Shown piece after piece: positions 39,144 through 56,200 of a DNA stretch of 64,000 bases. The stretch covers positions 342,840 through 406,839 of the forward strand of contig CALJES010000012.1 in the NCBI GenBank assembly GCA_938074205.1, written 5' to 3'. A model generated the notes under the pieces. That model was not told the DNA's origin and did no database searches. It saw nothing but the letters and a program-made list of their open reading frames with translations. The translations under genes were made by a program, and so were the position numbers. Source of the stretch: an uncultured bacterium (GTDB taxonomy: Bacteria; Armatimonadota; UBA5829). Numbering within the stretch: position 1 is the first letter of the stretch; each line of letters opens with the position of its first letter.

Positions 39144-40862
39144 TCAGTATTGGTCCTCTTCTAAGAATACCTTACGGCGGGCTTCATCTAACGTGGTGAC
39201 ACCAGCCAGAACTTTCTCGACCGCCGATTCACGCAGCGTTTTCATTCCGGAACGAATGGCAAGCTCGCGAACTTGATTCGCCGTGGGCATTTGTAGTGTT
39301 AGGCGTCTTATCTCTTCGGTAACACGCATGAGCTCTACGACTGCGGTGCGGCCAATAAAACCACCGCTGCAGTGTCCGCATCCGACAGCTTTGTAAAGCG
39401 TGACACCAGTGCGCTGCTCCGAAAATCCTAACACGGCCAGCTCGTCCGGGGTTGCCTCGTAAGCGACTTTGCAGCGAGGACACAATGTGCGCACCAGTCT
39501 TTGTGCGATTATCCCGATGACTGAAGAGCCTATTAGGAATGGTTCCACACCCATATCTGTAAGGCGCGTGATTGCAGAAGCTGCGTCATTGCAGTGAAGT
39601 GTTGAGAAAACAAGGTGCCCAGTCATTGCCGCCTGGAACGCGATTGTGGCGGTCTCTCTGTCCCTTATTTCGCCTACGAATATGACGTCAGGGTCCTGCC
39701 TAAGTATTGCTCGCAATTGAATGGGAAACGTAAGCCCAGTCTTTACATTAACTGCCGACTGGTTTATTCCATCCAATTCGTATTCTATTGGGTCTTCGAC
39801 AGTCATTATGTTAATTTCCGGCGATCGGATGCTGTCCAATGCGGAATATAGTGTGGTTGTCTTTCCACTACCCGTTGGTCCCGTAACCAAAATGATACCG
39901 TGAGGCCGCTTGATCAGGTACTTGAACGACTCTAGATCATCTGCGCTGAAGCCTAGTCTTTCAAGCGACAAGAGCACTCCCGATTTGTCAAGTATTCGCA
40001 CTACTACACGTTCGCCGTGCTGAACTGGCAGTGTGGAGATTCTAAGGTCGATATTTTTGTTGTTCAATTTTACGCTTATCCTGCCGTCTTGGGGAATGCG
40101 CTTCTCTGCTATGTCAAGGTCTGCCATGACCTTGATTCTGCTAACTACCGCGCCTTGCAGGTTTTTGGGTATATCGCGGACGTGCTGCAAAACTCCGTCA
40201 ACGCGATATCGAACCTCCATTCGGTCTGCCCTAGGTTCGAAATGGATATCGCTCGCGCGCTGCCTTATAGCCTCCTGAAGAACCAGGTTCACCGCTTTGA
40301 TGACGGGTGCCTCTTCGCTCTTACGCCGCTCCTCAGATATGTCCGGTGAGAGTTCCGGCTGATCTATCTCTACAGAAATTCCTTCGGAAGCTTGTTCTAT
40401 CGAGGTAGTTATGTCATCGGCAGTTGCAGCGCCGTACAAACGATCTATCAAGGTCTCTATCTGCGACCGGCTTGCCAGCAAAGGTTCTACTCGACGTTTG
40501 GAGACCCGCGTGACAGCGTCCATAGCTTCAACATCCATGGGATCAGCAGTAGCTATTGCGATGCGGTCTTCCGTCGCGTAGATGGGGACGACAGTATATG
40601 TGCGGGCAATACCCTCCGGAACCAATCGAACGACGTAGTCCGGAACTCTGATGTCGGCCAGGTCGACGGAGGGCATTTCCATCTGCAGTGCCCGTGCTTC
40701 TACGATATCTTCTTCAGAAACAAGGCCTGATTCGAGCAGTATCTCGCCCAATCTCTTGTAATTGAATTTCTGCTGTTCGAGCGCCCAATCCAACTGCTTT
40801 TCGGTTATTACACCAGCAGCAACTAGAACGTCGCCCAGCCGTGTCCTAAGCTGCGACTGCAT
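39144..40862 (-). CDS. type II secretion / type IV pilus assembly ATPase (GspE/PilB family)
   Basis: 572 aa; N-terminal GSPII_E_N domain, Walker A GPTGSGKTTT, Asp/His boxes, C-terminal CPRC...CGHC zinc motif. Confidence 0.9.
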   Translation of the reverse strand: MQSQLRTRLGDVLVAAGVITEKQLDWALEQQKFNYKRLGEILLESGLVSEEDIVEARALQMEMPSVDLADIRVPDYVVRLVPEGIARTYTVVPIYATEDRIAIATADPMDVEAMDAVTRVSKRRVEPLLASRSQIETLIDRLYGAATADDITTSIEQASEGISVEIDQPELSPDISEERRKSEEAPVIKAVNLVLQEAIRQRASDIHFEPRADRMEVRYRVDGVLQHVRDIPKNLQGAVVSRIKVMADLDIAEKRIPQDGRISVKLNNKNIDLRISTLPVQHGERVVVRILDKSGVLLSLERLGFSADDLESFKYLIKRPHGIILVTGPTGSGKTTTLYSALDSIRSPEINIMTVEDPIEYELDGINQSAVNVKTGLTFPIQLRAILRQDPDVIFVGEIRDRETATIAFQAAMTGHLVFSTLHCNDAASAITRLTDMGVEPFLIGSSVIGIIAQRLVRTLCPRCKVAYEATPDELAVLGFSEQRTGVTLYKAVGCGHCSGGFIGRTAVVELMRVTEEIRRLTLQMPTANQVRELAIRSGMKTLRESAVEKVLAGVTTLDEARRKVFLEEDQY

Positions 40863-41502
40863 TAGAAGTTCCCTCCACTATCTCGCTAATGCGCTCCGCT
40901 ATTCTCCACAGCGGCAAAATTTCCTGTACCAGACCTGCCTCGATAGCGGCCGAAGGCAAGCCGTGTACAACGCTAGTGGCTTGGTCTTGAGCAATAGTTA
41001 CTCCACCCGCCTCGTGAATTGCCCGCATGCCCTCGCGGCCGTCGGTCCCGACACCGGTCAATAAGACACCCACCGTACGCTTTCCGAAGACTTCCGCTGC
41101 GGAAGTCATAAGCTCGTCGATTCTGTTCCTTGGCGGTTCTGTGCTGCCACTTGCGTATTCTATATTGATACAATAGGCGGGAGTAGGCGCAAAACCGACT
41201 CTAGCTACGCTGACTTTCGCAGTTAAAGGGCATACCAGGATCCTAGAAGCGAGGAGCGCCTGACCATCCTCCGGTTCGAAAACCGGTAATCTGCATAACT
41301 TTTGTAGGTGTTTAACCAGCACTCGCGTGAAACCAGGTCTCATGTGCTGAGCCACAAGTATCGTCGCGGGAATAGTAACTGAAAACTGCGGAAGAATCTG
41401 CGACAAGGCTTGTGGCCCGCCGGCTGTTGCGCCAAATACGACAACCCAATCCGGTGCTTTCTGATTCAATCTTTGACCTGCTGAGTCATTTGTGTTCGCC
41501 AT
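40846..41502 (-). CDS. standalone CheB-type methylesterase domain protein (no receiver domain)
   Basis: 218 aa; aligns to CheB catalytic domain (GATAGG~GASTGG, AQHMRPGFT, LTGVGTDG, IAQDQATSVVHGLP); putative nucleophile Ser appears replaced by Thr; 17-nt overlap with gspE/pilB start. Confidence 0.7.
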   Translation of the reverse strand: MANTNDSAGQRLNQKAPDWVVVFGATAGGPQALSQILPQFSVTIPATILVAQHMRPGFTRVLVKHLQKLCRLPVFEPEDGQALLASRILVCPLTAKVSVARVGFAPTPAYCINIEYASGSTEPPRNRIDELMTSAAEVFGKRTVGVLLTGVGTDGREGMRAIHEAGGVTIAQDQATSVVHGLPSAAIEAGLVQEILPLWRIAERISEIVEGTSNAVAA

Positions 41503-41526
41503 CTTGGTCCCCCTTGCTTCCAGAGC

Positions 41527-42360
41527 CTACTGAGGCTCAACAGAAATCGAGCGGCCGTCAGTAACCATTTTGACTATGCCGTCGTTGTCAGTTCTGTACA
41601 CCCTCGCACCGGTATTATTCGCATCTATCCGTTCGAGGATAGAGCGACCGGGCTTCTTGTGCCCCCTGTTGACAAGCAACACAAAATACTTTGGTTTCGC
41701 CGCGACAATCAGCTCCAACGAAGTAGTTGAATACCGACCGTTTCGCCCTATAACCAAGATATCAGTGCTAACGTCCTGCCCAGATCGAATTAGGTAACCC
41801 TCATCTTCGATACCAGCGTCCGACATCAGCAAAAATCGACTTCTTCGATATTGCAAACGCGTTATCAACGGCCTTTCATCAGCATCGACCGCATCTCGCG
41901 GAGGCGACAACGCAGTAAGCCTAAGCTCGCCACCGAGTCGAAAGGAGTCTCCTCCAAATAGGAGCACCTCCGCAATGCTGCCACCAGGTCCGTGAATAGA
42001 TTCGGCCCATGGTGTGCCGGTGTGTATAACGCGGCGCACTTCGAAAGCCTCGAAAAGCCGCCGCAGAGTCTCTAAAATGGTTCCGTTGCCACGCGTTATT
42101 AGAACGTCGATCGACGAAATGTCGTTATACCGAAGATACTCTACAAGGGCATCGGCAGTATTTGGAGCGCCTGGGTCGATGACAAGTGCGCGTCCATCTG
42201 GCATCTTGAAAACTGTAGCGTTGCCAAAGTCCGCAGTTAGGAAACTTGCTATTACAACGGGACCTGCGGGTCTAGATACTCTCTTGCCCTGCCGGTTCAA
42301 AAGGAAAAACGCACCTGACGACAGGACTACTATGATGATTATCGGCAAGAGCTTACGCAT
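41527..42360 (-). CDS. membrane-anchored metallo-beta-lactamase-fold-like protein with degenerate metal-binding motif
   Basis: 277 aa; N-terminal signal anchor; ALVIDPG...IDVLITRGNGT resembles MBL/ComEC-C fold but lacks HxHxDH. Confidence 0.4.
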   Translation of the reverse strand: MRKLLPIIIIVVLSSGAFFLLNRQGKRVSRPAGPVVIASFLTADFGNATVFKMPDGRALVIDPGAPNTADALVEYLRYNDISSIDVLITRGNGTILETLRRLFEAFEVRRVIHTGTPWAESIHGPGGSIAEVLLFGGDSFRLGGELRLTALSPPRDAVDADERPLITRLQYRRSRFLLMSDAGIEDEGYLIRSGQDVSTDILVIGRNGRYSTTSLELIVAAKPKYFVLLVNRGHKKPGRSILERIDANNTGARVYRTDNDGIVKMVTDGRSISVEPQ

Positions 42361-44540: not shown

Positions 44541-45824
44541 ATGAAAGCTATTAGGCTACTGGCTATTGCTGCGCTGGCAGTACTGACGCTGTGCGAACTA
44601 GGCGTATGTGGTCCTATTTTAAAGGTCGAGAAGAAAGGAACGTATTTCTATTGGTTTGATTATACCGATGGCTTCGGGGGCAAACGTGTTACCCAGCCCA
44701 TCAAGTTCAAGGGCAACTCGACCGAGCTCGATACATCGGCTTTGGGGACAACCTTTAAGGGCGCAAAACTGTTCGTCATGAGCAAAAAAACCGGAAACCT
44801 CGCGATTCTCGACTATGCACCGGAAAAGAATCAGAAATCAGCCAAAGAGATTGTGCTTAAGAACGATGCGTTCGCGTATGTCCGCAACGTACGGCTGCGT
44901 ATCGTTGCAGAAGATGGTTCTCCCGTTGAAAGCGCCCTAGTCGAGATAACGGATGGCGAAGGAACACCGATGGCGGCGGTCATAACACCGGCCGATAACG
45001 GCACTGCAAGTTTTCAGAACGTTGCGGCAGGGGAGGTTAATGTCAAAGTCCGAGCAGCTGGCGTTACGAAGACAATAGACTCCGATATAGAAGTCCCGAC
45101 AAAGCGCGATAAACCCTGGTTCGAAAAAGACGTGAGGGTGAAAGGTGACGTGGATACTCTTCCCACTCAGGTTATTGTTCCCACTGAGGCCAAGACAGGT
45201 GAGGCCGAAACAGCAAAGCGCGAGCACGCATCTAGTCTAGATCTAGCTCTGCAAACGCTAGCTGGAATCATATTTTTGGTAATCGTTGTCGCCATCATAT
45301 ACGCAGTAGTTAGGGCCAGAGGCATCACTGTAGAACAAGCGCTGCGCAAATTGGGCGTTCAGTTGCCGGATAGTGCAACTGGTACGGCACAACCTGGCGC
45401 TGGTGAGGTCGGGCCAGCAACATCGGGTGTTGACCAAAGCATTTGTCCGTTCTGCGGCCAGAAGCGAGACGCTTCCGGAAACTGCGCTTGCTCTGTTCAA
45501 CCAACTGCTGCAACGCCCCAAACTGCATTCGACCTAGCACCTAGGCTAGTTGGTTTGACGGGGTTATATGCAGGCCAAGTGTTCGCACTCAGTTCGGGAA
45601 CTCAAGTTGTCGGTAGAGAAGCTGGGTGTCACGTGCCTCTGGTCAATGACAATACAACGTCGCGTCGTCACGCGACTATAACCGTGTCGCCAGACGGTTA
45701 CACGATTCGCGACGAGGGAAGCTCCAATGGTACGTTCGTAAACGGTGTTCGCATTCAGGAACAGAAGCTCACTCCCGGCGACGAGATTCAGATAGGCGCG
45801 ACCCGATTTCGGTTCGAGGTATAG
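44541..45824 (+). CDS. single-pass membrane FHA protein: signal peptide, extracytoplasmic domain, TM helix, cytoplasmic zinc ribbon, C-terminal FHA domain
   Basis: 427 aa; TM LQTLAGIIFLVIVVAIIYAVV; CPFCGQ...NCAC; FHA signature GRE...SRRHATI...GSSNGTFVNG. Confidence 0.85.
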   Translation: MKAIRLLAIAALAVLTLCELGVCGPILKVEKKGTYFYWFDYTDGFGGKRVTQPIKFKGNSTELDTSALGTTFKGAKLFVMSKKTGNLAILDYAPEKNQKSAKEIVLKNDAFAYVRNVRLRIVAEDGSPVESALVEITDGEGTPMAAVITPADNGTASFQNVAAGEVNVKVRAAGVTKTIDSDIEVPTKRDKPWFEKDVRVKGDVDTLPTQVIVPTEAKTGEAETAKREHASSLDLALQTLAGIIFLVIVVAIIYAVVRARGITVEQALRKLGVQLPDSATGTAQPGAGEVGPATSGVDQSICPFCGQKRDASGNCACSVQPTAATPQTAFDLAPRLVGLTGLYAGQVFALSSGTQVVGREAGCHVPLVNDNTTSRRHATITVSPDGYTIRDEGSSNGTFVNGVRIQEQKLTPGDEIQIGATRFRFEV

Positions 45825-45871
45825 GATCGGGCAGGAGCGCCAGCCGACGTGACGGTTGTGCGGAGGCGAAG

Positions 45872-47371
45872 TTGATCCGAGTAATCCGATGTACACTTGG
45901 GGCGCTTACGGGGGCTATTGTGGCATGGGGGTCAATGGAATGGACGAGACTCTTGCCAGAGTCGCGCACGCCGGGTGTGGAAGTGATAATCCCGTACTCC
46001 TATCTGTTCATAATAGGACTTGTTTCAGGGCTACTTATCGGCCTCGCGGTGGGAATAGCTGAAGCTCTTGGAGCCTTTTCACCAAAAGAGGCGCGTAGGG
46101 GTCTTCTGGCTGGGGCAACGATGGGTGCAGCTGGTGGGGTTATCGGCGTCACATTGGGAAATGCGGTATATAATGCTATGCGAGCGCTCGCGGGCGGAAG
46201 TCCGTATGGTCCGCAGTTGCCATCAAATGTGCCTCCTGAAGCTAGAATTCCATCGGTCCCTGCTCCTATAGCATTCCTACTGCTGCTTATTGGCCGTGGT
46301 CTAGGATGGGCTCTCATAGGAGCTTTCATCGGAATTTCGCAGGGGATCGCCGCCGGTTCAATGAGGCGTATGGTCAACGGCACCGTCGGCGGATTTATCG
46401 GCGGCGGGCTTGGTGGATGCGTTTTCGAGATCCTTGTCTGGCTTAACAAGGGTGGTGTTGCAAATTTCCCGCCGGAGTTTATCCGCTTCATCAGTTTTAG
46501 CTCTACAGGAGCGGCAATTGGACTGTTTATCGGTTTTGCAGGGGAGCTCGCAAAGCAAGCCTGGCTGGTGCGTCTTGTCGGAATCAATGAAGGCAAGCAG
46601 TACATTCTCGAAAAGCCCGAAACGGTTATAGGGCGAAGCGAATTGGTAGACGTGCCCATATTCGGCGATCCGGACGTAGCAGAGCGACATGCGGTGATAG
46701 TTAAAGAAGTAGGGCGTTTCTACATACAAGACCTTGGCTCATACGCCGGAACATGGGTAAATGACGTCCGAGTATCCAAGCAAATACTGCAGGACCGTGA
46801 CACGATAACGTTAGGCAAAACTCGATTCTTGTTTAGAGAAAAGGCAACGGAGCGAATTGACTTTGCGCCGACAAACTCATACGGCCCCCGCGAAAAGATT
46901 CCAACATCGCCACACATATGCCCGTTTTGCGGGTCGGTCAAAGATGAAATGGGCAATTGCCAGTGTGCTGTACCTCCTGGGCCCACATCTCAGCCAACAG
47001 CGTCGACCCCAAGCCAGATTTTGCAAGTTAATCAGCCTATACAACCTTCTGATGTAACTGTGCCCATGGCGACAACCGTTGATCAACCGAAGCTAGTTGC
47101 CCTCACCGGGCCTTATGCGGGACGAACGTTCACGCTTAAGCCTGTGATTACTGAGATCGGCAGAGAAGCTACGAAAGACATATCTCTTTCGGTGGACAGT
47201 GCTGTCAGTCGGAAACACGCGCGCATAGTCCGCGAGGGCACCTCATACGTCATATACGATGAAGGCAGTACGAACGGAACATACGTCAACAACACTCGCG
47301 TAACAAGACAGGAACTTGTTAACGGAGACGTGGTTCAGATCGGCAGCACGAAGTTTATGTTTGAATTGTAG
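45872..47371 (+). CDS. polytopic membrane protein (Gly-zipper-rich TM domain) with FHA - zinc ribbon - FHA cytoplasmic module
   Basis: 499 aa; ~6 TM segments rich in GxxxG; FHA1 (GRSEL...ERHAVI...GSYAGTWVN); CPFCGS...NCQC; FHA2 (GREAT...SRKHARI...GSTNGTYVN). Confidence 0.85.
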   Translation: MIRVIRCTLGALTGAIVAWGSMEWTRLLPESRTPGVEVIIPYSYLFIIGLVSGLLIGLAVGIAEALGAFSPKEARRGLLAGATMGAAGGVIGVTLGNAVYNAMRALAGGSPYGPQLPSNVPPEARIPSVPAPIAFLLLLIGRGLGWALIGAFIGISQGIAAGSMRRMVNGTVGGFIGGGLGGCVFEILVWLNKGGVANFPPEFIRFISFSSTGAAIGLFIGFAGELAKQAWLVRLVGINEGKQYILEKPETVIGRSELVDVPIFGDPDVAERHAVIVKEVGRFYIQDLGSYAGTWVNDVRVSKQILQDRDTITLGKTRFLFREKATERIDFAPTNSYGPREKIPTSPHICPFCGSVKDEMGNCQCAVPPGPTSQPTASTPSQILQVNQPIQPSDVTVPMATTVDQPKLVALTGPYAGRTFTLKPVITEIGREATKDISLSVDSAVSRKHARIVREGTSYVIYDEGSTNGTYVNNTRVTRQELVNGDVVQIGSTKFMFEL

Positions 47372-47438
47372 CCGGTATCTAAACGCAACGGAGTCGTAGG
47401 TCACTTGACTAATTCAATTCGATTCCCGAACTTACGGG

Positions 47439-48794
47439 GTGAATGGCATGGACGATAAAACGCACATTTTTCCGCCTGAAGATCCTAACAAAACGCATAT
47501 CAGCAGCTTCGATCCCAACGCAACTCAGCTTGCTGGGTCGATAGATCCGAACCGCACAGCGATGGCCGGAAGCATCAGGTCTCTCACTGTAGAGTGCGTT
47601 CTGGAAAACACCTGTGCCCTTGCAACTCAGGCGAGCCGCATGCATGTGTTGGTCAAGATCATTGCGAGTGGCAGCGCTATGGGTGCCCGAATGCCTCTGA
47701 ATTTGTGTCTGATTCTGGATCGCAGCGGGTCTATGGAAGGCTCGCCTATGGACTATATGAAACAAGCGTGCGGATATGTGGTAGACATGCTCCAGCCGAA
47801 TGATGTGCTGTCGATCGTGGCTTTTTCGGACGAGGCCGAAGTCATTATGCCGGCGCGCAGAGTTATCAACAAACAGCTTATAAAGGAGCACATAAACCGC
47901 CTCGAAGTGGGAAACACCACAAATCTCTACGACGGCATTGCACTCGGTGCAAGTCAACTGGCTGCCGTTGCTTCGCCTGGGTACGTGACTCGTGCCCTGC
48001 TGTTTACGGACGGTGAACCGACCTCGGGCAATAAAGACTTCAGCTCTATCGTTGGACAGGTAGTGGAACAGAAAAGTAGAGGTATCACGTTTACGGCTTT
48101 GGGCTTTGGGCCTGAGTATAACGAGGAGCTTCTTTCCGCCATCGCTAAGCGCAGCGGAGGCAACTACTACTACATTATGCGTCCGGAGCTAATACCTGAA
48201 ATATTCCGCAAGGAGCTCGAGTCGGTCATGATGACGGTGGCTCGGAACGTCAGGATGCGCGTACTTATGTCGCGGTGGGTGCAAGTTAGACAGATCTATA
48301 ACAAACTCCCCACCTATGGGCATCGAAGCGCCGAGGTCACTTTGGCGGATCTAGAACGTGGCGAACTGCAGACAGCTATTGTGGAGTTGGAGCTTGGACC
48401 GCGGCCTGGCGGCAGATACCGTGTAGCAAAAATCGAAATCATATACGATGACTCTTCCACTGGAAAAACCGAAACGGTTTCATCAGATGTAGTTATTAGC
48501 TTCACGACAGATGCTGCGCGCATCGCAGGCGGTTTCAACCCAGAAGTGCAGCGCGAACTTGAGGTAGCTAAAGCCTCGCGAAATCTCGAGCGCACAGTAA
48601 TGGGGATGCGCACACAGATGATATCGCCCGATGAGGCACTTAGAGAGCTGGAAAAGACACAGGCTCTACTTATCCAGCAGGGCAAGACTCTTCAGGCGCA
48701 GGATATCCAGAGAGCGATCGATCAGATCAAACAGGGAGCTGCAGCCGAAAAGACACTTATAGGTATAAACCTTGACCGGGAGAAAGCACAATGA
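47439..48794 (+). CDS. von Willebrand factor A (vWA) domain protein (TerY-like)
   Basis: 451 aa; MIDAS motif LDRSGSMEG, vWA fold, C-terminal beta-rich + coiled-coil region; N-terminal DPNxT x4 repeats. Confidence 0.85.
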   Translation: MNGMDDKTHIFPPEDPNKTHISSFDPNATQLAGSIDPNRTAMAGSIRSLTVECVLENTCALATQASRMHVLVKIIASGSAMGARMPLNLCLILDRSGSMEGSPMDYMKQACGYVVDMLQPNDVLSIVAFSDEAEVIMPARRVINKQLIKEHINRLEVGNTTNLYDGIALGASQLAAVASPGYVTRALLFTDGEPTSGNKDFSSIVGQVVEQKSRGITFTALGFGPEYNEELLSAIAKRSGGNYYYIMRPELIPEIFRKELESVMMTVARNVRMRVLMSRWVQVRQIYNKLPTYGHRSAEVTLADLERGELQTAIVELELGPRPGGRYRVAKIEIIYDDSSTGKTETVSSDVVISFTTDAARIAGGFNPEVQRELEVAKASRNLERTVMGMRTQMISPDEALRELEKTQALLIQQGKTLQAQDIQRAIDQIKQGAAAEKTLIGINLDREKAQ

Positions 48795-49696
48795 TGATGG
48801 AAGACGTAGATAAAACGATTCCAGCAGGAGATCTATATCCGGGAACAGTGCCCACAGTGAGCCGGACTGACGCAGAGCCTACGCAGATGGCCGTAAGTGT
48901 GGAGTGCCCGGTTTGCCATACGCCGAATCCCCCTGCGGAAGTCTACTGCATGGACTGCGGCTTTCTGTTGTCATCTACGCCTGAGGAGCGAATGGAAGAA
49001 TTTGAAGTTAGTCCTCCTGCCGTTCTGGTAACGCAAGACGGAACGCGCGAGTTTACACTGCGAGTCGGCGAGAACACTGTCGGCCGGCAGGATGCGGACG
49101 TGCTCCTTACACACAACACGGTTTCAAGAAAGCATGCTGTTGTTACCTTAGAGGATGGCAAGGTATATGTCGAAGATATCGGAAGCACCAACGGGACCTT
49201 TGTCGGTGGGAAAAAACTGGAGCCAGGGCAAAGAGTTGAGTTGGCTAACAGCGCAGAGGTAGTTTTTGGAAACCAGTTGCTAATTCTGAAACTTGTTGCC
49301 GCAACGCAGGAGAAGGCCGCTGAAGAAGAACCACCGCAGCAGAAATACGCTATCGAAACAGGTCAAATTAGTGTACAAGAGCAAGAGACAGAACAAGCCC
49401 AACTTGTTGCCAAGCTGGTGTCTGAGGACGGCAAGCTGTCTTATATTCTTGCTCCAGGAACGTACTCAGTAGGTCGCAGAGAAGGAAACGCCATCGTAAT
49501 TCCTGACCCGTATTGTTCCGGCAGTCACGCGGAGCTACGCGTTCAGAAAAGCCGGATCGAGGTTGTAGATCTCGAGAGCACAAATGGTACGTGGGTCAAC
49601 GGGGTAAGAATCGAGCCCAACGAGCCTCGTGAGGTGCAAATTGGCGACGAGCTGACTTTCGGAAAAACCGTGCTCAGATTAGAGGAAATGCAATGA
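48791..49696 (+). CDS. cytoplasmic zinc ribbon + tandem FHA domain protein
   Basis: 301 aa; CPVCH...CMDCG; FHA1 (GRQDA...SRKHAVV...GSTNGTFV), FHA2 (GRREG...GSHAEL...ESTNGTWVNG); 4-nt overlaps with vWA upstream and PP2C downstream. Confidence 0.85.
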   Translation: MMMEDVDKTIPAGDLYPGTVPTVSRTDAEPTQMAVSVECPVCHTPNPPAEVYCMDCGFLLSSTPEERMEEFEVSPPAVLVTQDGTREFTLRVGENTVGRQDADVLLTHNTVSRKHAVVTLEDGKVYVEDIGSTNGTFVGGKKLEPGQRVELANSAEVVFGNQLLILKLVAATQEKAAEEEPPQQKYAIETGQISVQEQETEQAQLVAKLVSEDGKLSYILAPGTYSVGRREGNAIVIPDPYCSGSHAELRVQKSRIEVVDLESTNGTWVNGVRIEPNEPREVQIGDELTFGKTVLRLEEMQ

Positions 49697-50580
49697 CAGA
49701 CGACTCCAAACAGGAGATCACAGCCAAGATAAACACTGCCGAACTTGTTCAGGCTTGGGAAGAAAAAGCCCAAAAAGCAAGGCGTATCAAGCTGGTAACT
49801 GCTTTAGGTGCGCGAACAGATTTGGGACGTATTCGTGAGAACAACGAGGACAAGTTTGAGTTTTACATGCCCGAAGACGAAGAAACGCTTGCCAGAAAAG
49901 GCTGGTTCTTTGCAGTAGCAGATGGTATGGGAGGTCATTCGGCAGGTCAAATAGCCAGCGAACTTGCACTTAAGACTACCATAAGCAGTTACTACAGCGA
50001 CGATTCTCCTATTGTGGAAGAGTCTCTCAGAGCAGCCATAGCAAAGGCTAACGCGCTCATATTCGATACTTCGAGAGCCGTCCTAGAGCGCTCTGGCATG
50101 GGGACAACGATCACTGCGTTAGTATTGCGCGGAGATGAGGCGTTCGTCGCGCAGGTCGGCGACAGCAGGTGTTATCTAATGCGTAATGGCCGGTTGACAC
50201 AAATAACAGAGGATCACTCTTGGGTAAACGAGCAGGTAAAGCGCGGTGGACTATCGCGCGAAGAGGCAGAATGTTCACCATTCAAGAACGTCATCACTCG
50301 CTCGCTGGGGACATCACCTACTGTTGAGGTCGATTTATTCACTCAGGACATAATGCCAGGAGATGTTTTCCTGCTTTGTTCAGACGGTCTGAGCGGGGAG
50401 CTCAGCGATGACGAAATAAGAGACGTTCTAGCTGGCGAGTGTGCGTCTGTGGCAGCGTGGAAACTCGTTGACCGAGCTTTGGAAAATGGAGGGCACGACA
50501 ATGTCACGACACTTGTTGTTGCCATTAAAGATATCATTAGACCCAAAAAGAAAAGGCGCTTTTGTTTGCTGTGTGGCTAG
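49693..50580 (+). CDS. PP2C-family Ser/Thr protein phosphatase (Stp/PstP-like)
   Basis: 295 aa; FAVADGMGGH, GTTITAL, VGDSRCY, LLCSDGL, GGHDNVT motifs. Confidence 0.9.
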   Translation: MTDDSKQEITAKINTAELVQAWEEKAQKARRIKLVTALGARTDLGRIRENNEDKFEFYMPEDEETLARKGWFFAVADGMGGHSAGQIASELALKTTISSYYSDDSPIVEESLRAAIAKANALIFDTSRAVLERSGMGTTITALVLRGDEAFVAQVGDSRCYLMRNGRLTQITEDHSWVNEQVKRGGLSREEAECSPFKNVITRSLGTSPTVEVDLFTQDIMPGDVFLLCSDGLSGELSDDEIRDVLAGECASVAAWKLVDRALENGGHDNVTTLVVAIKDIIRPKKKRRFCLLCG

Positions 50581-50635: not shown

Positions 50636-52276
50636 ATGACGGTGTCTGCGCAATCAACCAACACTCTCGGAAAATACCAGATAATTAGGGAGATCGCTCG
50701 GTCGAACGATATCGTGTACGAGGCGATTGACCCGTCCATAAACCGACGCGTCGCCCTGAAGGAGCTTTGGCTTGACCCTAGTCTAACAGGCGTACAGAAG
50801 CGGGAACGCATAGAGCGCTTTTGGCGCGAGGGGAAAGCAGCCGGCCGACTGAGCCACCCGAACATTGTCACCATTTATGAGGTAGGGCGCGACGGTGATC
50901 GGTACTTTATTGCAATGGAATACCTGGAAGGACAGACCCTGCGCGATGTGTTGCAGGCGGGAGGTCCTTTACCCATCGAAACGATCAAGGATTACGTGCT
51001 CCAATTGTGCTCAGCACTCTCGTATGCGCACAGCAACGGCGTGATACACCGTGATATCAAGCCAGAAAACGTACAAATTCTTCCCGGCGGACATATCAAG
51101 CTGACGGACTTCGGCATTGCCCGCATAATGGGTGAGCCTGTAATCACACAGGACGGACAAGTTTTCGGAACTCCCAGCTATATGTCTCCGGAACAGGTCG
51201 CCGGTAAACCTATTGATGCACGATCCGACATCTTCTCTTTGGGAGTTCTGATATACGAAATGTTGACTGGCAAAAAGCCTTTTGCAGGTGACAGCCTCGT
51301 CACCATAACCTACAACATAATGAATATGGAGCCGCCTCCACCTCCTGGGGCACCGCCTTATTTAGCAGCAATTGTAAGAAAAGCAATGGCAAAGGACCCA
51401 GAGAAGCGGTATCAATCAGTGGACGAGCTGGCTGAGGATCTTCGGAATGAAAGATGTAGCGATCCGGATTTCTATACCGGTCTTGAATCACAACCCAGCA
51501 CTTCGGCCTCTCAGCTGACGAGACAGCAACCAGTTCCCGTAACAGGTTATAGCGCTCCAATGCCTTCGTCCACGACTGCTGGTCCGCCGGATCCTTTTGC
51601 GCAGCCTTTTCCGGCTCCCTCGCCGCCTCCTCCCCCGCAGCCGATACTCAGCGCGGAGACCCGAAGCTTTTTGGGAGTGTTTTTCCTCGTGATAGGTGTA
51701 GCTGGAATGATTATCTTCGCCATATGGGCGCTCAATATTGCGTATGAGAGTTATGTAACGGCTCAGACGACCTCTGCTGCTGCGCGATATTACGAACAAG
51801 GCATCGAACTACTAAAGAGGGGCAGATTGGATGTCGCGGAGCAGCAGTTTCAACACGCGATCAGGGTATCTCCTAAGTCAGAAATTGCAAAGTATTCGCA
51901 AGATGCAATCTACCAGATCTGGACAGCTCGCGCACATTCTTACGCAAGCCAGCGCAACCAGCGAGCGTTGGAAGAGCAAGCTCGCAGGATGATCGAGTTG
52001 AGGCCCAATAACCCTGAGGGCCACTTCTACCTAGGACTTGCCTACGAACGGCAAGGCAAGTTAAGTGAGGCCATTGCCGAGTACGAAAAGGCTTCGCTGT
52101 TGGCGGGTAACGACGAGGCAGGTTACGGACAAGCTTCTCGATCTAGGATTGAATACTTAAAAGACTTATTGCAAGAAGCTAACACGCCTGGTTCAATGCA
52201 ACCACCTACCTACGATGCACCGCAGCCGCCTTCGTCCGATATTCCGTATCAATGGCCGCCGCGTGGGAGTCCGTAA
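50636..52276 (+). CDS. Hanks-type Ser/Thr protein kinase with Pro-rich linker, TM helix and extracytoplasmic TPR domain
   Basis: 546 aa; VALK, HRDIKPEN, DFGIA, SPE kinase subdomains; TM FLGVFFLVIGVAGMIIFAIWAL; C-terminal TPR. Confidence 0.92.
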   Translation: MTVSAQSTNTLGKYQIIREIARSNDIVYEAIDPSINRRVALKELWLDPSLTGVQKRERIERFWREGKAAGRLSHPNIVTIYEVGRDGDRYFIAMEYLEGQTLRDVLQAGGPLPIETIKDYVLQLCSALSYAHSNGVIHRDIKPENVQILPGGHIKLTDFGIARIMGEPVITQDGQVFGTPSYMSPEQVAGKPIDARSDIFSLGVLIYEMLTGKKPFAGDSLVTITYNIMNMEPPPPPGAPPYLAAIVRKAMAKDPEKRYQSVDELAEDLRNERCSDPDFYTGLESQPSTSASQLTRQQPVPVTGYSAPMPSSTTAGPPDPFAQPFPAPSPPPPPQPILSAETRSFLGVFFLVIGVAGMIIFAIWALNIAYESYVTAQTTSAAARYYEQGIELLKRGRLDVAEQQFQHAIRVSPKSEIAKYSQDAIYQIWTARAHSYASQRNQRALEEQARRMIELRPNNPEGHFYLGLAYERQGKLSEAIAEYEKASLLAGNDEAGYGQASRSRIEYLKDLLQEANTPGSMQPPTYDAPQPPSSDIPYQWPPRGSP

Positions 52277-53230: not shown

Positions 53231-56200
53231 CTATTGTCCGATGAACTGCAGAGTATCAATCTCTGCTCCAGCATAGCCAGTGCGCATCAGCATCATTCTG
53301 ATACGACCGGAACCTGAGATATACCTATTGCAGCAAATACCCTGCACAACCACTTGTTTTCCTATGTCCTCGGGTGAGCGCGGGAACGCTGAAATTGCAT
53401 CCCAGGCTCTTATTACTTTGATGCCCTTATATCCATCGGGTCCGCCCTCGCAAGGAACGCCGCTGCCGTCGTCTACATAACACCACATCCAGCCTTTCGA
53501 AACGTCCTCACCGTATCCAAGCACCTTACCTGTTACTCTAATCAGCAGACCCTCAGTGTTGAGACCGGTCGCAACCACCGGATTATTGCCGACCCAGGCT
53601 CCGATTACGGCTGGCGTGCCATCACCAGGTCCGGGATTGGCGACGTTAGAACGCCAACCACCGCCGTAGGATTTCACGTTCATACAGATGAACGGCGGCA
53701 AATCAGTGTATCCGCCGAGTGTCGGCATCGAATCCAACCTCAACTCACGAGTAAGGTCAATCACTGGGTCAGTGCTGGAGGTCGGCAGCACCAGGGTGCC
53801 ACTCATTCTGGTTATTGTGGCGCCGGCAGTCATCCCGGGCGGGAAGTAGTTCCCGAGGGCCTTCGCGTTGACCTTTAAACCTGCGGCACCCAGCCCGCCA
53901 TCTGGCGTCAATTGCTCAACCCAGAACCACTTCTCCGCATTCGAGCCATACAAATCACCCGGATCGACATACGTCACGATACACGGATTCTCGTAGTTCT
54001 CGAATATGACTGAGGTGTCTTTACAGGCTTTGATCTCGCCTATCGTAGAGTACTTGAACAAGATTTTTATACCGTCGCTGACTCCTGCTTCGCTCCAAAT
54101 GCCTGCACCGTTCTTGGCCTTAACCAAGACATAGTAGGTGCCGAGTTTCAAGTTCAACCCCGTGAACGTATACTCTGTGACGTTGCCCACCGAGCGCCAG
54201 TCTGCAACGTAGTCGCGACCTATGTCCATTGGCACGCCGCTTATCGCGCAAGCATACTCGACCACTCCACTCTCAGGATCAGAAGCAGCAGTCCAAGTGA
54301 CGTGCATAGTGGTCATACTATTCTGCTCATCTCCGTCGTCGAACACCACCGGTATGCTAGGCGGCGTAACGTCCCCTGCCGTTGGCACGACTACGCCGTA
54401 GGACTTAGTCGTTGACGAGTTGGGACCGTCCGGAGGCGAGTAAACTCTCAGGATCTCGAGGTTGTTGTCTATGGCGTAGAGGTTGCCGACAGCGTCAAAA
54501 GCGGCGTCACGCCAGGTAGAGAAGATAGTCTTTCCCTGCTCGTAGACGTCGCGGGTGAATACGCTCTTAAGTGCAGTGGTAACTCCAGTTGTCTGCTCCG
54601 TCCAGGTTGCGCCGCCGTCCCTGCTGACGTAGGCTTTTCCATTAGGCCCGACTGCCCAACCAAGTGCCGGGTCGACAAACTTAGCACAATTAAGTGCCGG
54701 TGCTCCCGACGAAACGATAGTCCACGTGGCACCGCCGTCTTTCGTCTTAGCAACCGTTCCGTCTTCCGCAACCACTTTAGCAACCAGACTTGTCACCACG
54801 GATACGCTCTTGAGCTTCTTGCCTGCCAGCTCAGGGACAACTTGAGGTACCCAAGTAGCTCCGCTGTCGGTGGTGCGCAGTATAGTGCCATTGTCGCCCA
54901 CTGCCCAGCCATATTCCTGAACAGAAGGTAGGTGCCGATGCCTTGCTACGCCTATTGAATAAAGGTTTGCGGTCGTGCCAGAGTTCAAGAGAGACCAAGA
55001 TGTACCAGAGTTGACGCTTTTCAGTATGACACCACCGTTACCGCAGACATACAGTACCTGTTGACCAGTGGTTGCTGAGCCGAAGGGTTGATCTATCCAG
55101 TTAAGATCCTGCGTGGTGCCGGAGCTTGCTGCGGACCAGGTAGCACCGCTGTCTGCCGACACGTATATTGCACCGCCCGCACCAACTGCCCACACGTAGT
55201 ATGTATAGACAACCGGGCTTCCGGATGAGGACATAAAAGCTCTCACGCATTTTAGGTCCTGCGAACCGGGCGTGCTAGGGATGGTCCAGGTGGCGCCGCC
55301 GTCTGTAGTTCTTAGGAATGTGCCTGCGTTACCTACGGCGTAGCCGACAGTGGATGAGCGCATGAAGATGTCGTTTAGGTCGTTGGTTGTTGGGGACGTC
55401 ACATTTATCCACGTCCGACCTCGATCAGCAGATCGCAGGATCGTCCCGCCGGAGCCCACTGCCCAAACTCCGACGGGGGAAATAACTTGCATGCGTTCTA
55501 GGTCGAAATCTTTGTCGGTGACAATCAGTCGGCCGTTGTTATACGTGCATACAGCCACTCTGTTGCGGGCATCGTCAAGCGCCAAACCATATGTGTTACG
55601 GAGCACGTCCTGGCCGCCCCAGTCTGTAAGTGATAGGAACAACAGTGTCTGGTCCTGAGCCACTTTTATGACGCTCGAAATGTCAGTTCCGTCCGCTCTG
55701 TTTTGGCTAATGTACCAGTTACCCTCAGAATCCTTGGCGAAGTCTTGGTAGGTGTTTTGCATTATGTTGACAGGATAGTTGTCATTGTACGGAATGGCAT
55801 CGGGCTTTCCCCACCAAGGCAGCTGACTGTTTCCAACGTTGTACTGCCACACGCTGCCTCTTTGAGCAACGTTGCCGGGATAGTCCTCGTCGAGCGTGTA
55901 GATCACTCTATCCGGACCGACGCCTTCGACGATCGCGCCGAGTATATTACCGTGGTTCGACGTAAGACCAGTACTGTCAGCACCGGCCGGGTCAAAAATC
56001 GACTGCGCGCTGAGAAAATCAGGGTCGCCAACCCAAAGCCCCGGGTGTGAATCGTGATTATCACACACATATAGGCAGTCGTCCGGGCCTACGGTGCATC
56101 GCCAGGGACTATATGAGCTTAGTACCCACGTAACACCGCCCGTTCGTGCATGGTCGCCCTGCCCGACAGCATCGGTGCCGTCGGCGTTGAGAATATAGAT

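What the first reader, a model, noticed from the sequence alone, without database searches (positions are those of the whole stretch)
44541..49696. Three paralogous zinc-ribbon + FHA proteins with Thr/Pro/Gln-rich linkers (likely kinase substrates)
All three FHA proteins place a C4 zinc ribbon (CPFCG...NCxC / CPVCH...CMDCG) immediately N-terminal to an FHA domain, separated by T/S/P/Q-rich low-complexity linkers (e.g. PTSQPTASTPSQILQVNQPIQPSDVTVPMATTVDQPK), reminiscent of the TQ/TP phospho-acceptor motifs of FhaA/GarA/OdhI. Protein 2 has FHA-Zn-FHA and protein 3 has Zn-FHA-FHA, which suggests phosphorylation-dependent intra- or inter-molecular FHA:pThr closure. Repetition of the Zn-ribbon+FHA unit is unusual.
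Basis: seen in the sequence. Interest (0 to 1): 0.6.

Follow-up and report, generated by a model that had tools for sequence, protein, structure and literature searches.

The report
Bacterial ArnA/ArnB-like phosphothreonine signalling operon
Three zinc-motif + FHA proteins sit in a six-gene operon conserved across the phylum Armatimonadota, and its core looks like a bacterial, expanded version of the archaeal ArnA–ArnB phospho-switch, so it is an interesting variant of a known kind rather than something new in kind.

Summary
Window 44541-49696 encodes three proteins with five Pfam-significant FHA domains, and each has a four-Cys motif upstream of an FHA domain.

- The Zn–FHA linkers are variable spacers (16-82 aa in orthologues of protein B) with no conserved Thr.
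- The conserved Thr sit in disordered N-terminal tails. In the vWA protein they are T8, T19, T29 and T40, consensus D-P-N-R-T-Q-M-G, about 11 aa apart. In the soluble Zn-FHA-FHA protein they are T9, a second site about 11 aa on, and T31.
- The three Zn motifs are of two types, and only the type in D scores as a zinc ribbon.

The vWA protein's best matches among solved structures are Sulfolobus ArnB and ArnE. Protein D has the same CxxC-x10-CxxC spacing plus FHA as ArnA. In ArnA the zinc ribbon docks on ArnB and the FHA domain binds phospho-ArnB.

The gene order Nnr-A-B-vWA-D-PP2C-kinase is conserved phylum-wide. More distant relatives keep only vWA, Zn-FHA-FHA and PP2C. Fused vWA-FHA-FHA proteins lack the Cys motif.

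Verdict: a new, expanded variant of a known module. The mechanism is inferred, not shown.

The parts
44541..45824 (+). Protein A (427 aa). Bitopic membrane protein: N-terminal hydrophobic signal (residues 6-24), extracytoplasmic prealbumin-like domain (117-188), TM helix (239-257), Cys4 motif and a canonical FHA domain.
   Evidence: ORF. FHA E 3.6e-18 and CarboxypepD_reg E 1.2e-6 (below cut-off). Hydrophobic segments and Cys positions. In 55 orthologues the FHA columns checked at residues 358 (G), 375 (R) and 394 (S) are invariant.
45444..45491 (+). A/B-type Cys4 motif of A (CPFCGQKRDASGNCAC, residues 302-317).
   Evidence: Conserved in 44 of 55 orthologues and lost in a Chthonomonadaceae subset and in loci L058, L063, L064 and L070. 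No Pfam zinc model matches this motif type.
45872..47371 (+). Protein B (499 aa): six-helix glycine-rich membrane domain (1-227), FHA1 (230-323, degenerate pThr pocket), Cys4 motif (350-365), disordered linker (366-405), FHA2 (407-498, canonical).
   Evidence: ORF. Two FHA stretches, E 3.7e-38. AlphaFold2 model mean pLDDT 84.7, with helices 2-227 mostly at 85-97, Zn region at 60-78 and linker below 50. 47 full-length orthologues.
46919..46966 (+). A/B-type Cys4 motif of B (CPFCGSVKDEMGNCQC).
   Evidence: C350, C353, G354, D358, G361, C363 and C365 are invariant in 47 orthologues.
46967..47086 (+). It is a variable spacer, not a conserved phospho-site region.
   Evidence: Length 16-82 aa, composition Q 17%, P 17%, A 14%, T 10%, no aligned conserved Thr. 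TQ at chance frequency. pLDDT below 50.
47439..48794 (+). Protein C (451 aa): ArnB-like vWA protein with a Thr-repeat N-terminal tail, a vWA domain with MIDAS motif DRSGS (94-98), and a beta-sandwich plus C-terminal helical region carrying invariant [KR]-T motifs.
   Evidence: VWA E 2.7e-23. Best PDB sequence hits are ArnB 8s05_A (E 6.7e-11, query 86-427) and ArnE/vWA2 5a8j. MIDAS. C-terminal motifs.
47439..47588 (+). N-terminal tail of C with four Thr motifs (T8, T19, T29, T40) spaced 10-11 aa. Consensus D-P-N-[RK]-T-Q-M-G-G. Proposed kinase sites and FHA ligands.
   Evidence: T8 in 57 of 58, T40 in 58 of 58, T19 in 44 of 58, T29 in 38 of 58. 2.5 TQ per sequence, and 44% of Thr are followed by Q against 8% expected. 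Alignment.
48791..49696 (+). Protein D (301 aa): soluble ArnA-like adaptor with a disordered Thr-motif tail (1-38), a classical zinc ribbon (39-56), FHA1 (77-168), an acidic linker and FHA2 (207-299).
   Evidence: Two FHA stretches, E 3.7e-41, and Zn_Ribbon_1 E 0.002. AlphaFold2: tail pLDDT about 50, Zn region 78-92, both FHA domains mostly 95 or higher. Invariant C39, C42, C53, C56, T31 and both GR/SxxH/NG sets.
48905..48958 (+). Zinc ribbon of D (CPVCHTPNPPAEVYCMDC, CxxC-x10-CxxC). Same Cys spacing as the RanBP2-type ArnA zinc ribbon (C21, C24, C35, C38).
   Evidence: Of 44 orthologues, 40 hit DZR, 37 hit Zn_Ribbon_1 and 25 hit Zn_ribbon_RanBP. ArnA Cys positions from PMC12852372.
49693..50580 (+). 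Protein E: PP2C Ser/Thr phosphatase. Its start overlaps the end of D by 4 bp.
   Evidence: NCBIfam Stp1_PP2C_phos 248.8 bits, above the cut-off of 230. Overlap.
50636..52276 (+). Protein F: Hanks-type Ser/Thr kinase (about residues 12-272), Pro-rich juxtamembrane region, TM helix (345-363), C-terminal TPR domain (about 374-495, presumably extracytoplasmic).
   Evidence: Pkinase E 1.9e-51 and TPR families. TM helix. Conserved HRD, DFG, SPE and an activation-loop Thr (ITQDGQVFGTPSYMSPE).

Best explanation
This is a vertically inherited operon for reversible Ser/Thr phosphorylation signalling, conserved across Armatimonadota. Its core (vWA protein C, Zn-ribbon-FHA-FHA protein D, PP2C phosphatase E) is a bacterial counterpart of the archaeal ArnB/ArnA phospho-switch.

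Proposed mechanism:
1. The membrane kinase F, which carries a TPR domain presumed to be extracytoplasmic, phosphorylates the conserved Thr arrays. These are the 3-5 [RK]-T-Q-M motifs about 11 residues apart in the disordered N-terminal tails of C and D, and possibly the [KR]-T motifs in the C-terminal helical domain of C.
2. The four canonical FHA domains (one in A, FHA2 of B, two in D) bind these phospho-Thr.
3. The Cys4 motifs act as phosphorylation-independent docking modules that pre-tether the FHA proteins to the vWA protein, as the ArnA zinc ribbon does on the ArnB beta-sandwich and helical domain.
4. Because A and B are membrane proteins, phosphorylation would draw the vWA hub and the adaptor D into a multivalent complex at the membrane.
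5. The PP2C phosphatase E resets the system.
6. The T/S/P/Q-rich Zn-FHA linkers are flexible spacers, not the regulatory sites.

Shown by the analysis: domain identities, homology of C to ArnB, conservation of the Cys and Thr motifs, operon synteny, and the existence of fusions that lack the Cys motif.

Inferred: who phosphorylates what, which FHA domain binds which site, zinc binding itself, and the cellular output. My guess for the output is a housekeeping envelope or cell-cycle process, or a transcriptional one.
For: (1) Domains: five FHA domains, vWA, PP2C above the NCBIfam cut-off, and a Hanks kinase.

(2) The best solved-structure sequence hits of C are ArnB (8s05_A, E 6.7e-11, aligned over residues 86-427, that is vWA, beta-sandwich and helical region) and ArnE (5a8j). 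PMC12852372 identifies 8S05 as the ArnA-ArnB co-crystal. It shows the ArnA RanBP2-type zinc ribbon (C21, C24, C35, C38) docking on ArnB, with the FHA domain binding phospho-ArnB after the kinase ArnC acts.

(3) D has the same CxxC-x10-CxxC spacing, and 25 of 44 orthologues hit Zn_ribbon_RanBP. The region is confidently folded (pLDDT 78-92).

(4) Genes C-D and D-E overlap by 4 bp. The order Nnr-A-B-C-D-E-F recurs in dozens of the 78 related genome loci, all that carry a phylum label being Armatimonadota, including Chthonomonadales and Fimbriimonas. Identities of all six proteins fall in parallel with the housekeeping neighbour Nnr.

(5) Conserved Thr arrays: C T8 in 57 of 58 and T40 in 58 of 58; D T31 in 46 of 47.

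(6) Three more distant relatives examined (33-42% identity to C) keep the triad vWA, Zn-FHA-FHA, PP2C without A, B or F next to it. A sister clade that includes a Candidatus Riflebacteria protein carries 3-5 G-D-A-T-V-V repeats spaced 10-12 aa in the same vWA tail. Of 62 tails, 59 have at least two motifs.

(7) Single-chain fusions vWA-FHA-FHA (P0282, P0442, P0297) have no Cys4 motif. This is as expected if the zinc ribbon's job is to tether the FHA protein to the vWA protein.

(8) Solved precedents for a tail-pThr/FHA logic appear among the structural neighbours: GarA/OdhI, DgcB FHA with its phosphorylated N-terminal peptide, and MDC1 FHA with pT4.

(9) The kinase activation loop has a conserved Thr followed by Q in the window's clade.
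Against: - No experiment or complex prediction supports any specific contact here.
- The A/B-type Cys4 motif matches no zinc-ribbon profile. It is modelled with only moderate confidence (pLDDT 60-78). It is dispensable in 11 of 55 A orthologues. Its partner could be something other than the vWA protein.
- By sequence alone the D zinc ribbon found no PDB match, ArnA included.
- The ArnB phospho-sites are C-terminal, not in an N-terminal tail, and the Arn phosphatase is of the PP2A type, not PP2C.
- The residue at pT+3 in the motifs is G, A or S. As I recall, that is not the hydrophobic or acidic residue many characterised FHA domains prefer.
- FHA1 of B lacks the conserved Ser and Asn, so it may not bind pThr.
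- One relative with a Thr-repeat tail (P0262) has no FHA gene nearby.
- Pfam did not report the ArnB_C domain for C at E up to 1.
Confidence: 0.6

Rival explanations
1. The T/S/P/Q-rich Zn-FHA linkers are the kinase substrates, and phospho-linker binding by the neighbouring FHA domain closes each protein intra- or intermolecularly, in the style of GarA/OdhI or Rv1747.
For: The window's B linker is 60% T/S/P/Q and has 6 Thr. Linkers are disordered (pLDDT below 50). Thr is about 8-10% of the B linker across orthologues, with a weak T-[VA]-Q tendency. As precedent, Rv1747 has phospho-acceptor Thr in the unstructured linker between its two FHA domains (abstract of PMC8339232, seen).
Against: No aligned conserved Thr. 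Linker length ranges from 16 to 82 aa. The shortest B linkers (P0118, P0119) contain no Thr. TQ occurs at chance frequency in the A, B and D linkers. The D Zn-FHA1 linker is short and acidic. Much stronger conserved Thr motifs exist in the N-terminal tails of C and D.
Confidence: 0.15
2. The Cys4 motifs bind nucleic acid. D, with C, would be a phosphorylation-controlled transcriptional or RNA regulator, and the membrane proteins A and B would sequester it.
For: The ArnA/ArnB literature reports that RanBP2-type zinc ribbons can bind other proteins and single-stranded RNA (PMC6509490). One paper is titled 'ArnA functions as a global DNA damage response repressor' in Saccharolobus islandicus (PMC10470591). 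ArnB-like vWA genes sit next to MerR regulators or sigma factors on plasmids. The conserved C-D-E triad encodes no obvious enzymatic output.
Against: The ArnA-ArnB crystal structure shows the zinc ribbon contacting ArnB, not DNA. Fusion proteins drop the Cys motif altogether, which fits a tethering role better than a DNA-binding one. No HTH or other DNA-binding domain is present in the six proteins.
Confidence: 0.15
3. The cluster is a mobile anti-phage defence or conflict system built on a kinase, a phosphatase and vWA/FHA adaptors.
For: Kinase F hits PADLOC kinase models (PD-T4-6 5e-84, mad6 9e-73) and PP2C hits PDC-M21C (3.7e-10). Associations of vWA, kinase and PP2C occur in conflict systems described in PMC7159879.
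Against: A, B, C and D hit no PADLOC model. The kinase hits are generic Hanks-domain similarity. The cluster has a fixed position next to Nnr/AcpS across the phylum, with identities tracking the housekeeping neighbour. That pattern indicates vertical inheritance of a core function. No MoxR, effector or variable domains are present.
Confidence: 0.05

Closest known systems
ArnA / ArnB motility-repression module of Sulfolobus acidocaldarius (Saci_1210 / Saci_1211), with kinases ArnC/ArnD and phosphatase PP2A
   Same: Adjacent genes encode a Zn-ribbon + FHA protein and a vWA + beta-sandwich + helical-domain protein. C aligns to ArnB over 340 residues (E 6.7e-11). D shares the CxxC-x10-CxxC spacing and RanBP-type profile hits. 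Both are controlled by a Hanks-type kinase and a Ser/Thr phosphatase. In ArnA the zinc ribbon gives loose, phosphorylation-independent docking and the FHA domain gives tight phospho-dependent binding (PMC12852372).
   Different: - The system here is bacterial.
- D has two FHA domains and an N-terminal Thr-motif tail.
- C carries its most conspicuous conserved Thr array in an N-terminal tail, whereas the ArnB sites are in the C-terminal helical bundle.
- The phosphatase is PP2C (PPM family), not PP2A.
- Two extra membrane-anchored Cys4-FHA proteins (A, B) and the kinase are encoded in the same operon.
- There is no archaellum to regulate.
Deinococcus radiodurans DRA0331-DRA0334 operon (vWA, STPK, FraH-like FHA protein, KI-FHA-PP2C)
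   Same: A bacterial operon that combines a vWA protein, a Hanks kinase, an FHA protein and a PP2C phosphatase. FHA and phosphatase act antagonistically on kinase signalling (bioRxiv 10.64898/2026.01.23.701218).
   Different: The Deinococcus operon has one FHA protein plus an FHA-like domain fused to the phosphatase, a different gene order, and no membrane FHA proteins. Sequence relationship to the window proteins was not tested here.
GarA / OdhI (mycobacterial and corynebacterial FHA regulators)
   Same: A disordered N-terminal tail with phospho-acceptor Thr is followed by an FHA domain. The FHA domains here are most similar to GarA/OdhI (44% identity, rmsd about 0.9 Å).
   Different: GarA/OdhI have no zinc ribbon, no second FHA domain and no vWA partner. 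NCBIfam OdhI scores (55-113 bits) are far below the cut-off of 200. The motif is TQM rather than ETTS (the ETTS motif is from memory).
Actinobacterial fhaA-fhaB-pstP-rodA-pbpA-pknA-pknB cluster
   Same: A phylum-wide conserved operon with two FHA proteins (one membrane-anchored), a PP2C phosphatase and membrane Hanks kinase(s). FhaB/FipA is the best NCBIfam hit for A and D and the second-best for B.
   Different: The window's cluster has no rodA or pbpA and no PASTA domains. A vWA protein and Cys4 motifs are present. FhaB scores (59-113 bits) are below the cut-off of 125.
Rv1747 (M. tuberculosis ABC transporter with FHA-linker-FHA)
   Same: A membrane protein with two FHA domains joined by a disordered linker. 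Multivalent pThr-FHA interactions are involved (PMC3138270 and PMC8339232, listed). Phase separation of Rv1747 is from memory (Heinkel et al. 2019).
   Different: In Rv1747 the acceptor Thr are in the inter-FHA linker. Here the linkers lack conserved Thr, and the conserved sites are on partner proteins.
Anabaena FraH (from memory: double zinc ribbon, Pro-rich region, C-terminal FHA)
   Same: The architecture of a Zn ribbon, a Pro-rich spacer and an FHA domain, as in the C-terminal halves of A and B.
   Different: FraH functions in cyanobacterial filaments and heterocyst membranes.

Membership tests
FHA domain (PF00498) | Profile match above the gathering score, and the pThr-binding residues G-R, S-x-x-H and N-G. 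| tested here: met
   All five domains score well above the cut-off of 20.7 bits. Four have GR/SxxH/NG conserved in orthologues. FHA1 of B keeps GR and H but has A in place of S and lacks the N.
Zinc ribbon (Pfam Zn_Ribbon_1 / DZR / Zn_ribbon_RanBP), D-type motif | Two CxxC knuckles that score against zinc-ribbon profiles. | tested here: inconclusive
   The window protein scores 18.3 bits against a cut-off of 25. However, 40, 37 and 25 of 44 orthologues hit DZR, Zn_Ribbon_1 and RanBP at E up to 0.05, with a best E of 7.5e-6. The four Cys are invariant and pLDDT is 78-92. Zinc binding itself was not tested.
Zinc ribbon, A/B-type motif CPFCGxxxDxxGxCxC | Match to any curated zinc-ribbon profile. 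| tested here: not met
   The only hit is UPF0547, in 6 of 47 orthologues at E 0.11 or worse. The Cys are invariant in B but lost in 11 of 55 A orthologues. This is a probable metal-binding knuckle of an unclassified type.
ArnB-type vWA protein | A vWA domain with MIDAS, an inserted beta-sandwich and a C-terminal helical (RHB / ArnB_C) domain. | tested here: met
   The phmmer alignment to ArnB 8s05_A covers query 86-427 and chain 39-349, E 6.7e-11. MIDAS motif DRSGS at residues 94-98. Caveat: Pfam ArnB_C was not reported at E up to 1, and no structure model of C was made.
ArnB-type vWA protein | Phospho-acceptor Thr in the C-terminal helical bundle that the partner FHA domain binds. | not testable with these tools
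   Invariant [KR]-T motifs exist in the aligned region (LERTVMGMRTQM, EKTQ, EKTL), but their phosphorylation is unknown.
ArnA-type adaptor | An N-terminal RanBP2-type zinc ribbon (CxxC-x10-CxxC), a linker and an FHA domain, encoded next to the vWA gene. | tested here: met
   Cys spacing is identical to that of ArnA. RanBP profile hits occur in 25 of 44 orthologues. The D gene overlaps the vWA gene by 4 bp. Caveat: direct sequence search of the D zinc region against the PDB found nothing, and D has a second FHA domain.
ArnA/ArnB system | Regulation of archaellum expression, with PP2A as the phosphatase. | tested here: not met
   The organism is a bacterium of the Armatimonadota. The phosphatase is PP2C/Stp1-type. 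This is therefore a homologous module, not the Arn system itself.
OdhI/GarA (NCBIfam NF041660) | Score above the equivalog cut-off of 200 bits. | tested here: not met
   Scores are 55.4, 112.8 and 76.8 bits for A, B and D.
FhaB/FipA (NCBIfam NF049868) | Score above the equivalog cut-off of 125 bits. | tested here: not met
   Scores are 58.6, 105.9 and 112.8 bits.
T6SS TagH / T3SS SctD FHA proteins | Score above the family cut-off, and secretion-system neighbours. | tested here: not met
   TagH scores are 30-66 bits against a cut-off of 120. SctD scores 16.9 against 86. No secretion genes lie in the conserved cluster.
Known anti-phage defence systems (PADLOC) | Several components matching the models of one system. 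| tested here: not met
   Only the generic kinase and PP2C domains hit. A, B, C and D hit nothing.

The most novel reading that the evidence does not exclude
The Thr-repeat tails (3-5 sites at a spacing of about 11 residues on the vWA hub and on D), together with five FHA domains spread over two membrane proteins and one soluble adaptor, form a kinase-triggered multivalent pThr-FHA lattice at the membrane. This would be a switchable scaffold or condensate. It would be the Armatimonadota's own housekeeping controller of envelope growth or division, equivalent in rank to the actinobacterial FhaA/FhaB/PstP/PknAB system. It would also show that the ArnA/ArnB pair is an ancient module shared by archaea and bacteria, whose zinc ribbon is a dedicated vWA-docking device.
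Probability: 0.25. Interest if true: 0.65.

Novelty: new variant of a known kind. Interest (0 to 1): 0.45.

Why it matters
The work links an uncharacterised operon, conserved across the little-studied phylum Armatimonadota, to the only structurally understood Zn-ribbon-FHA/vWA switch, the archaeal ArnA-ArnB pair. That suggests the pair is an ancient module shared by bacteria and archaea.

It also yields concrete, testable predictions:
- Defined phospho-acceptor motifs: [RK]-T-Q-M repeats in Armatimonadota and G-D-A-T-V-V repeats in a sister clade.
- A docking role for the zinc ribbon, supported by fusion proteins that have lost it.
- Two membrane anchors that could localise the complex.

If confirmed, it would add a multivalent tandem-pThr/tandem-FHA design principle to bacterial Ser/Thr signalling. 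It would also give a handle on core physiology in a phylum with few cultured members.

Tried and rejected
- Foldseek against afdb50 was unavailable. Foldseek against the PDB with the B model returned only FHA-domain hits and nothing for the six-helix membrane domain.
- A sequence search of that membrane domain against the PDB gave only a weak NDUFA11 hit (E 5.6e-4). This is probably compositional (glycine-rich TM helices), and I did not pursue it.
- A sequence search of the D tail plus zinc ribbon against the PDB gave only chance hits.
- tblastn of the vWA protein against plasmids found ArnB-like vWA genes. They sit next to MerR regulators or sigma factors, or are alone, never next to FHA genes. 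This did not help for the FHA module.
- The PADLOC scan was negative apart from generic kinase and PP2C hits, so I rejected the defence-system reading.
- The MoxR-vWA ternary conflict systems of PMC7159879 were considered and rejected. No MoxR, VMAP or effector domains are present.
- The promoter and terminator scan gave counts at or near the shuffle expectation (promoters 9 against 9.4; terminators 15 against 10.1, sd 3.1) and no convincing internal terminator.
- One relative with a Thr-repeat tail (P0262) had no FHA neighbour.

Full report
**1. What is in the sequence**

Between 44541 and 52276 the + strand carries six closely packed genes.
- A (44541-45824, 427 aa).
- B (45872-47371, 499 aa).
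- C (47439-48794, 451 aa).
- D (48791-49696, 301 aa).
- E (49693-50580, 295 aa).
- F (50636-52276, 546 aa).

The pairs C/D and D/E overlap by 4 bp. The other gaps are 34-67 bp. A consensus scan found no convincing internal terminator, so this is most likely one operon, possibly continuing from the upstream acpS and nnr genes.

Pfam and NCBIfam give the following.
- A has one FHA domain (E 3.6e-18) plus a weak carboxypeptidase-regulatory-like (prealbumin fold) match in its N-terminal half.
- B has two FHA domains (E 3.7e-38).
- C has a vWA domain (E 2.7e-23).
- D has two FHA domains (E 3.7e-41) and a sub-threshold zinc-ribbon match.
- E is a PP2C phosphatase of the Stp1 family, above the NCBIfam cut-off.
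- F is a Hanks-type kinase followed by TPR repeats.

Hydropathy and the AlphaFold2 models add topology.
- A is bitopic: a signal-like segment, an ectodomain, a TM helix at 239-257, then a cytoplasmic Cys4 motif and FHA domain.
- B starts with six long glycine-rich helices (residues 2-227, mostly pLDDT 85-97). These are followed by FHA1, the Cys4 motif, a disordered linker and FHA2.
- D is soluble: a disordered tail (pLDDT about 50), a folded Cys4 region (78-92) and two FHA domains (mostly 95 or higher) joined by a disordered acidic linker.
- F has one TM helix between the kinase and the TPR domain.

**2.

The three Cys4 motifs are at A 302-317, B 350-365 and D 39-56. A regex for such motifs finds only seven in all six reading frames of the window, and these are three of them.

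The motifs are of two kinds.
- A and B share CPFCGxxxDxxGNCxC (CxxC-x9-CxC). Their whole Zn-FHA modules are 42% identical over 151 residues (E 4e-39), so they are genuine paralogues.
- D has a classical CxxC-x10-CxxC ribbon.

In orthologues the four Cys are invariant in B (47 sequences) and in D (44-47 sequences). Of 44 D orthologues, 40 hit DZR, 37 hit Zn_Ribbon_1 and 25 hit Zn_ribbon_RanBP. The A/B type hits no Pfam zinc model. It has been lost in 11 of 55 A orthologues.

Four FHA domains keep the canonical G-R, S-x-x-H and N-G residues. FHA1 of B keeps G-R and H, but it has Ala in place of the Ser and lacks the Asn. This degeneracy is conserved in the family.

**3. The linkers are not the conserved phospho-sites; the N-terminal tails are**

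- In 47 B orthologues the linker varies from 16 to 82 residues and is rich in Q, P, A and T.
- It has no aligned conserved Thr, and the shortest versions have no Thr at all.
- Across the A, B and D linkers Thr is 7-8%, and TQ occurs at chance frequency.

Two other regions carry sharply conserved Thr motifs.
- The N-terminal tail of the vWA protein C has four motifs: T8, T19, T29 and T40 in the window. The consensus is D-P-N-[RK]-T-Q-M-G-G, spaced 10-11 residues.
- T8 is present in 57 of 58 orthologues and T40 in 58 of 58. There are 2.5 TQ per tail, and 44% of Thr are followed by Gln against 8% expected.
- The N-terminal tail of D has three motifs about 11 residues apart. T31 is present in 46 of 47 and Q32 in 41 of 47, seven residues before the zinc ribbon. 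Two further sites are each present in 42 of 47.
- The C-terminal helical region of C also contains invariant [KR]-T motifs (LE[KR]T[VM]MGM[RK]TQQ, ELxKT, EKTL[IM]G).
- The kinase activation loop has a conserved Thr, followed by Gln in the window's clade.

**4. What it is related to**

Homology searches place the locus in Armatimonadota. A scan of species-representative genomes with the B alignment returned 78 loci. All that carry a phylum label are Armatimonadota, including Chthonomonadales, Chthonomonas calidirosea and Fimbriimonas.

Annotating those loci with the window proteins shows the order Nnr-A-B-C-D-E-F wherever the contig is long enough. Identities of all six proteins fall in step with the housekeeping neighbour Nnr. 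This is a vertically inherited core operon, not a mobile island. The PADLOC scan was negative for A-D.

The key comparison came from solved structures. The best sequence matches of C are 8s05_A (E 6.7e-11, aligned over residues 86-427) and 5a8j. According to PMC12852372 and PMC6509490 these are ArnB and its paralogue ArnE (vWA2) of Sulfolobus acidocaldarius. The published Arn system has these features.
- ArnB consists of a vWA domain, a beta-sandwich and a helical bundle.
- Its partner ArnA, encoded next to it, is a RanBP2-type zinc ribbon (C21, C24, C35, C38) plus an FHA domain.
- The co-crystal shows the zinc ribbon docking on the ArnB beta-sandwich and helical domain without phosphorylation.
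- After phosphorylation by the kinase ArnC, the FHA domain binds phospho-Thr of ArnB and tightens the complex. PP2A reverses this.

D has the same Cys spacing, RanBP-type profile hits and adjacency to the vWA gene. C and D are therefore a bacterial ArnB/ArnA-like pair.

An operon of vWA, kinase, FraH-like FHA protein and PP2C has also just been described in Deinococcus radiodurans.

**5. Wider distribution and two independent supports for the docking idea**

An exhaustive profile-free search with C found 829 clusters (at 50% identity) with E up to 1e-30.

Three more distant relatives examined (33-42% identity) keep the triad vWA, Zn-ribbon-FHA-FHA and PP2C. A, B and the kinase are not next to it. 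This triad looks like the core, and A, B and F are additions seen in the Armatimonadota loci.

In a sister clade that includes a Candidatus Riflebacteria protein, the vWA tail carries 3-5 copies of a different motif, G-D-A-T-V-V-[AS]. These are again spaced 10-12 residues, and 59 of 62 tails have at least two copies. A periodic Thr array on the vWA tail is therefore a conserved design whose sequence has drifted with its partners.

Some relatives are single chains of tail, vWA, FHA and FHA (P0282, P0442, P0297), and these have no Cys4 motif at all. That is what one expects if the zinc ribbon's role is to tether the FHA protein to the vWA protein.

**6. Most likely mechanism (inferred)**

1. Kinase F, whose TPR domain I presume to be extracytoplasmic, phosphorylates the Thr arrays of C and D.
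2. The canonical FHA domains of A, B and D bind them.
3. The Cys4 motifs pre-dock the FHA proteins on the vWA hub.
4. Because A and B are membrane proteins, phosphorylation assembles a multivalent complex at the membrane.
5. PP2C E disassembles it.

The T/S/P/Q-rich linkers serve as flexible spacers. Solved precedents for binding of a phospho-tail to an FHA domain are among the closest structural neighbours of these FHA domains: GarA/OdhI, DgcB with its phosphorylated N-terminal peptide, and MDC1 with pT4.

The output is unknown. Phylum-wide synteny with housekeeping genes suggests a core process. I hold this mechanism at about 0.6.

Rival explanations and my estimates:
- A nucleic-acid-binding regulator, about 0.15.
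- A defence system, about 0.05.

**7. Weak points**

- No contact, phosphorylation or zinc binding was tested.
- The A/B-type Cys motif is unclassified, only moderately confident in the model and dispensable in some lineages.
- The D zinc ribbon is too short for direct sequence matching to ArnA.
- Pfam did not report the ArnB_C domain for C.
- The known ArnB phospho-sites are C-terminal.
- One relative with a Thr-repeat tail has no FHA neighbour.

**8. Verdict**

The locus is a new, expanded variant of a known module (Zn-ribbon-FHA with vWA, a Hanks kinase and a Ser/Thr phosphatase). It has clearly defined, testable phospho-motifs.

Interest is moderate (0.45). A specialist would find the ArnA/ArnB link, the periodic Thr arrays and the triplicated Cys4-FHA proteins worth an experiment, but the underlying logic is familiar.

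Noticed in passing
window 50684-50722 (kinase F residues 17-29): The glycine-rich ATP-binding loop of the Hanks kinase is replaced by 'REIARSNDIVYEA', which has no glycine. The sequence is nearly invariant in all 26 orthologues, while HRD, DFG and SPE are intact and a Lys (VALKEL in the window) is present. The Pfam kinase match starts only after this segment.
   Followed up: partly
window 46631-46750 (B residues 254-293, FHA1): FHA1 of protein B keeps the G-R and His residues but has Ala where the pThr-contacting Ser sits (AERH) and lacks the Asn of the N-G motif. The degeneracy is conserved across orthologues, so this domain may bind something other than pThr.
   Followed up: partly
window 48588-48758 (C residues 384-440): The C-terminal helical region of the vWA protein has invariant [KR]-T motifs (LERTVMGMRTQM, EKTQ, GKTL, EKTL). 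It aligns to the Thr-rich regulatory helical bundle of ArnB. The internal 'MRTQM' echoes the N-terminal tail motif.
   Followed up: partly
P0397-P0462; L086 4037-5458: A sister clade of ArnB-like vWA proteins, which includes a Candidatus Riflebacteria protein, has N-terminal tails made of 3-5 'G-D-A-T-V-V-[AS]' repeats spaced 10-12 residues.
   Followed up: yes
P0282, P0442, P0297: These are single-chain fusions of Thr-repeat tail, vWA, FHA and FHA (811-864 aa) that lack any Cys4 motif. Shorter vWA-FHA fusions (about 550 aa, for example P0502) also exist.
   Followed up: partly
L085 7152-8741; L086 6370-8052: In the distant triads the PP2C phosphatase carries an N-terminal extension of about 270-300 residues with no Pfam match. 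By eye it has a faint kinase-like look. It was not analysed.
   Followed up: no
L084 9319-10395: The D-like Zn-FHA-FHA protein of this relative has an extra N-terminal region with weak J-domain similarity (DnaJ E 0.054). It also has an 'MRTQA' motif just before the zinc ribbon.
   Followed up: no
L079 6291-8137; L080 6213-8146; L081 6229-8053; L083 5499-8161: On plasmids of Deinococcus, Picosynechococcus and Meiothermus, an ArnB-like vWA gene directly follows a MerR-family regulator gene, with the genes overlapping in two of the three loci. In Rhizobium plasmids a longer vWA protein follows an RNA polymerase sigma factor gene. This is a different partnership for the same vWA type.
   Followed up: partly
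window 45872-46552 (B residues 1-227): The six-helix glycine-rich membrane domain of B has no Pfam family. Its only PDB sequence hit is a weak one to NDUFA11, which I recall as a Tim17-like fold (E 5.6e-4). A few orthologues weakly hit CTP_transf_1, microcin or colicin V families.
   Followed up: partly
window 53231-56755 (- strand) and 37387-39111 (+ strand): Two large repeat-rich secreted-looking proteins flank the region. One is a 1174-aa protein with many 'DGGxTW' sialidase/BNR-like repeats. The other is a 574-aa protein with repeated 'NGxxYAGGxF...W(N/D)GxxW' units. Neither is conserved next to the operon in other genomes.
   Followed up: no
window 39144-42360 (- strand): Divergently upstream lie a PilB/GspE-type ATPase, a CheB-like methylesterase domain protein and a ComEC-like metallo-beta-lactamase protein. 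They are linked to the operon only in the closer relatives, so they are probably not functionally coupled to it.
   Followed up: partly
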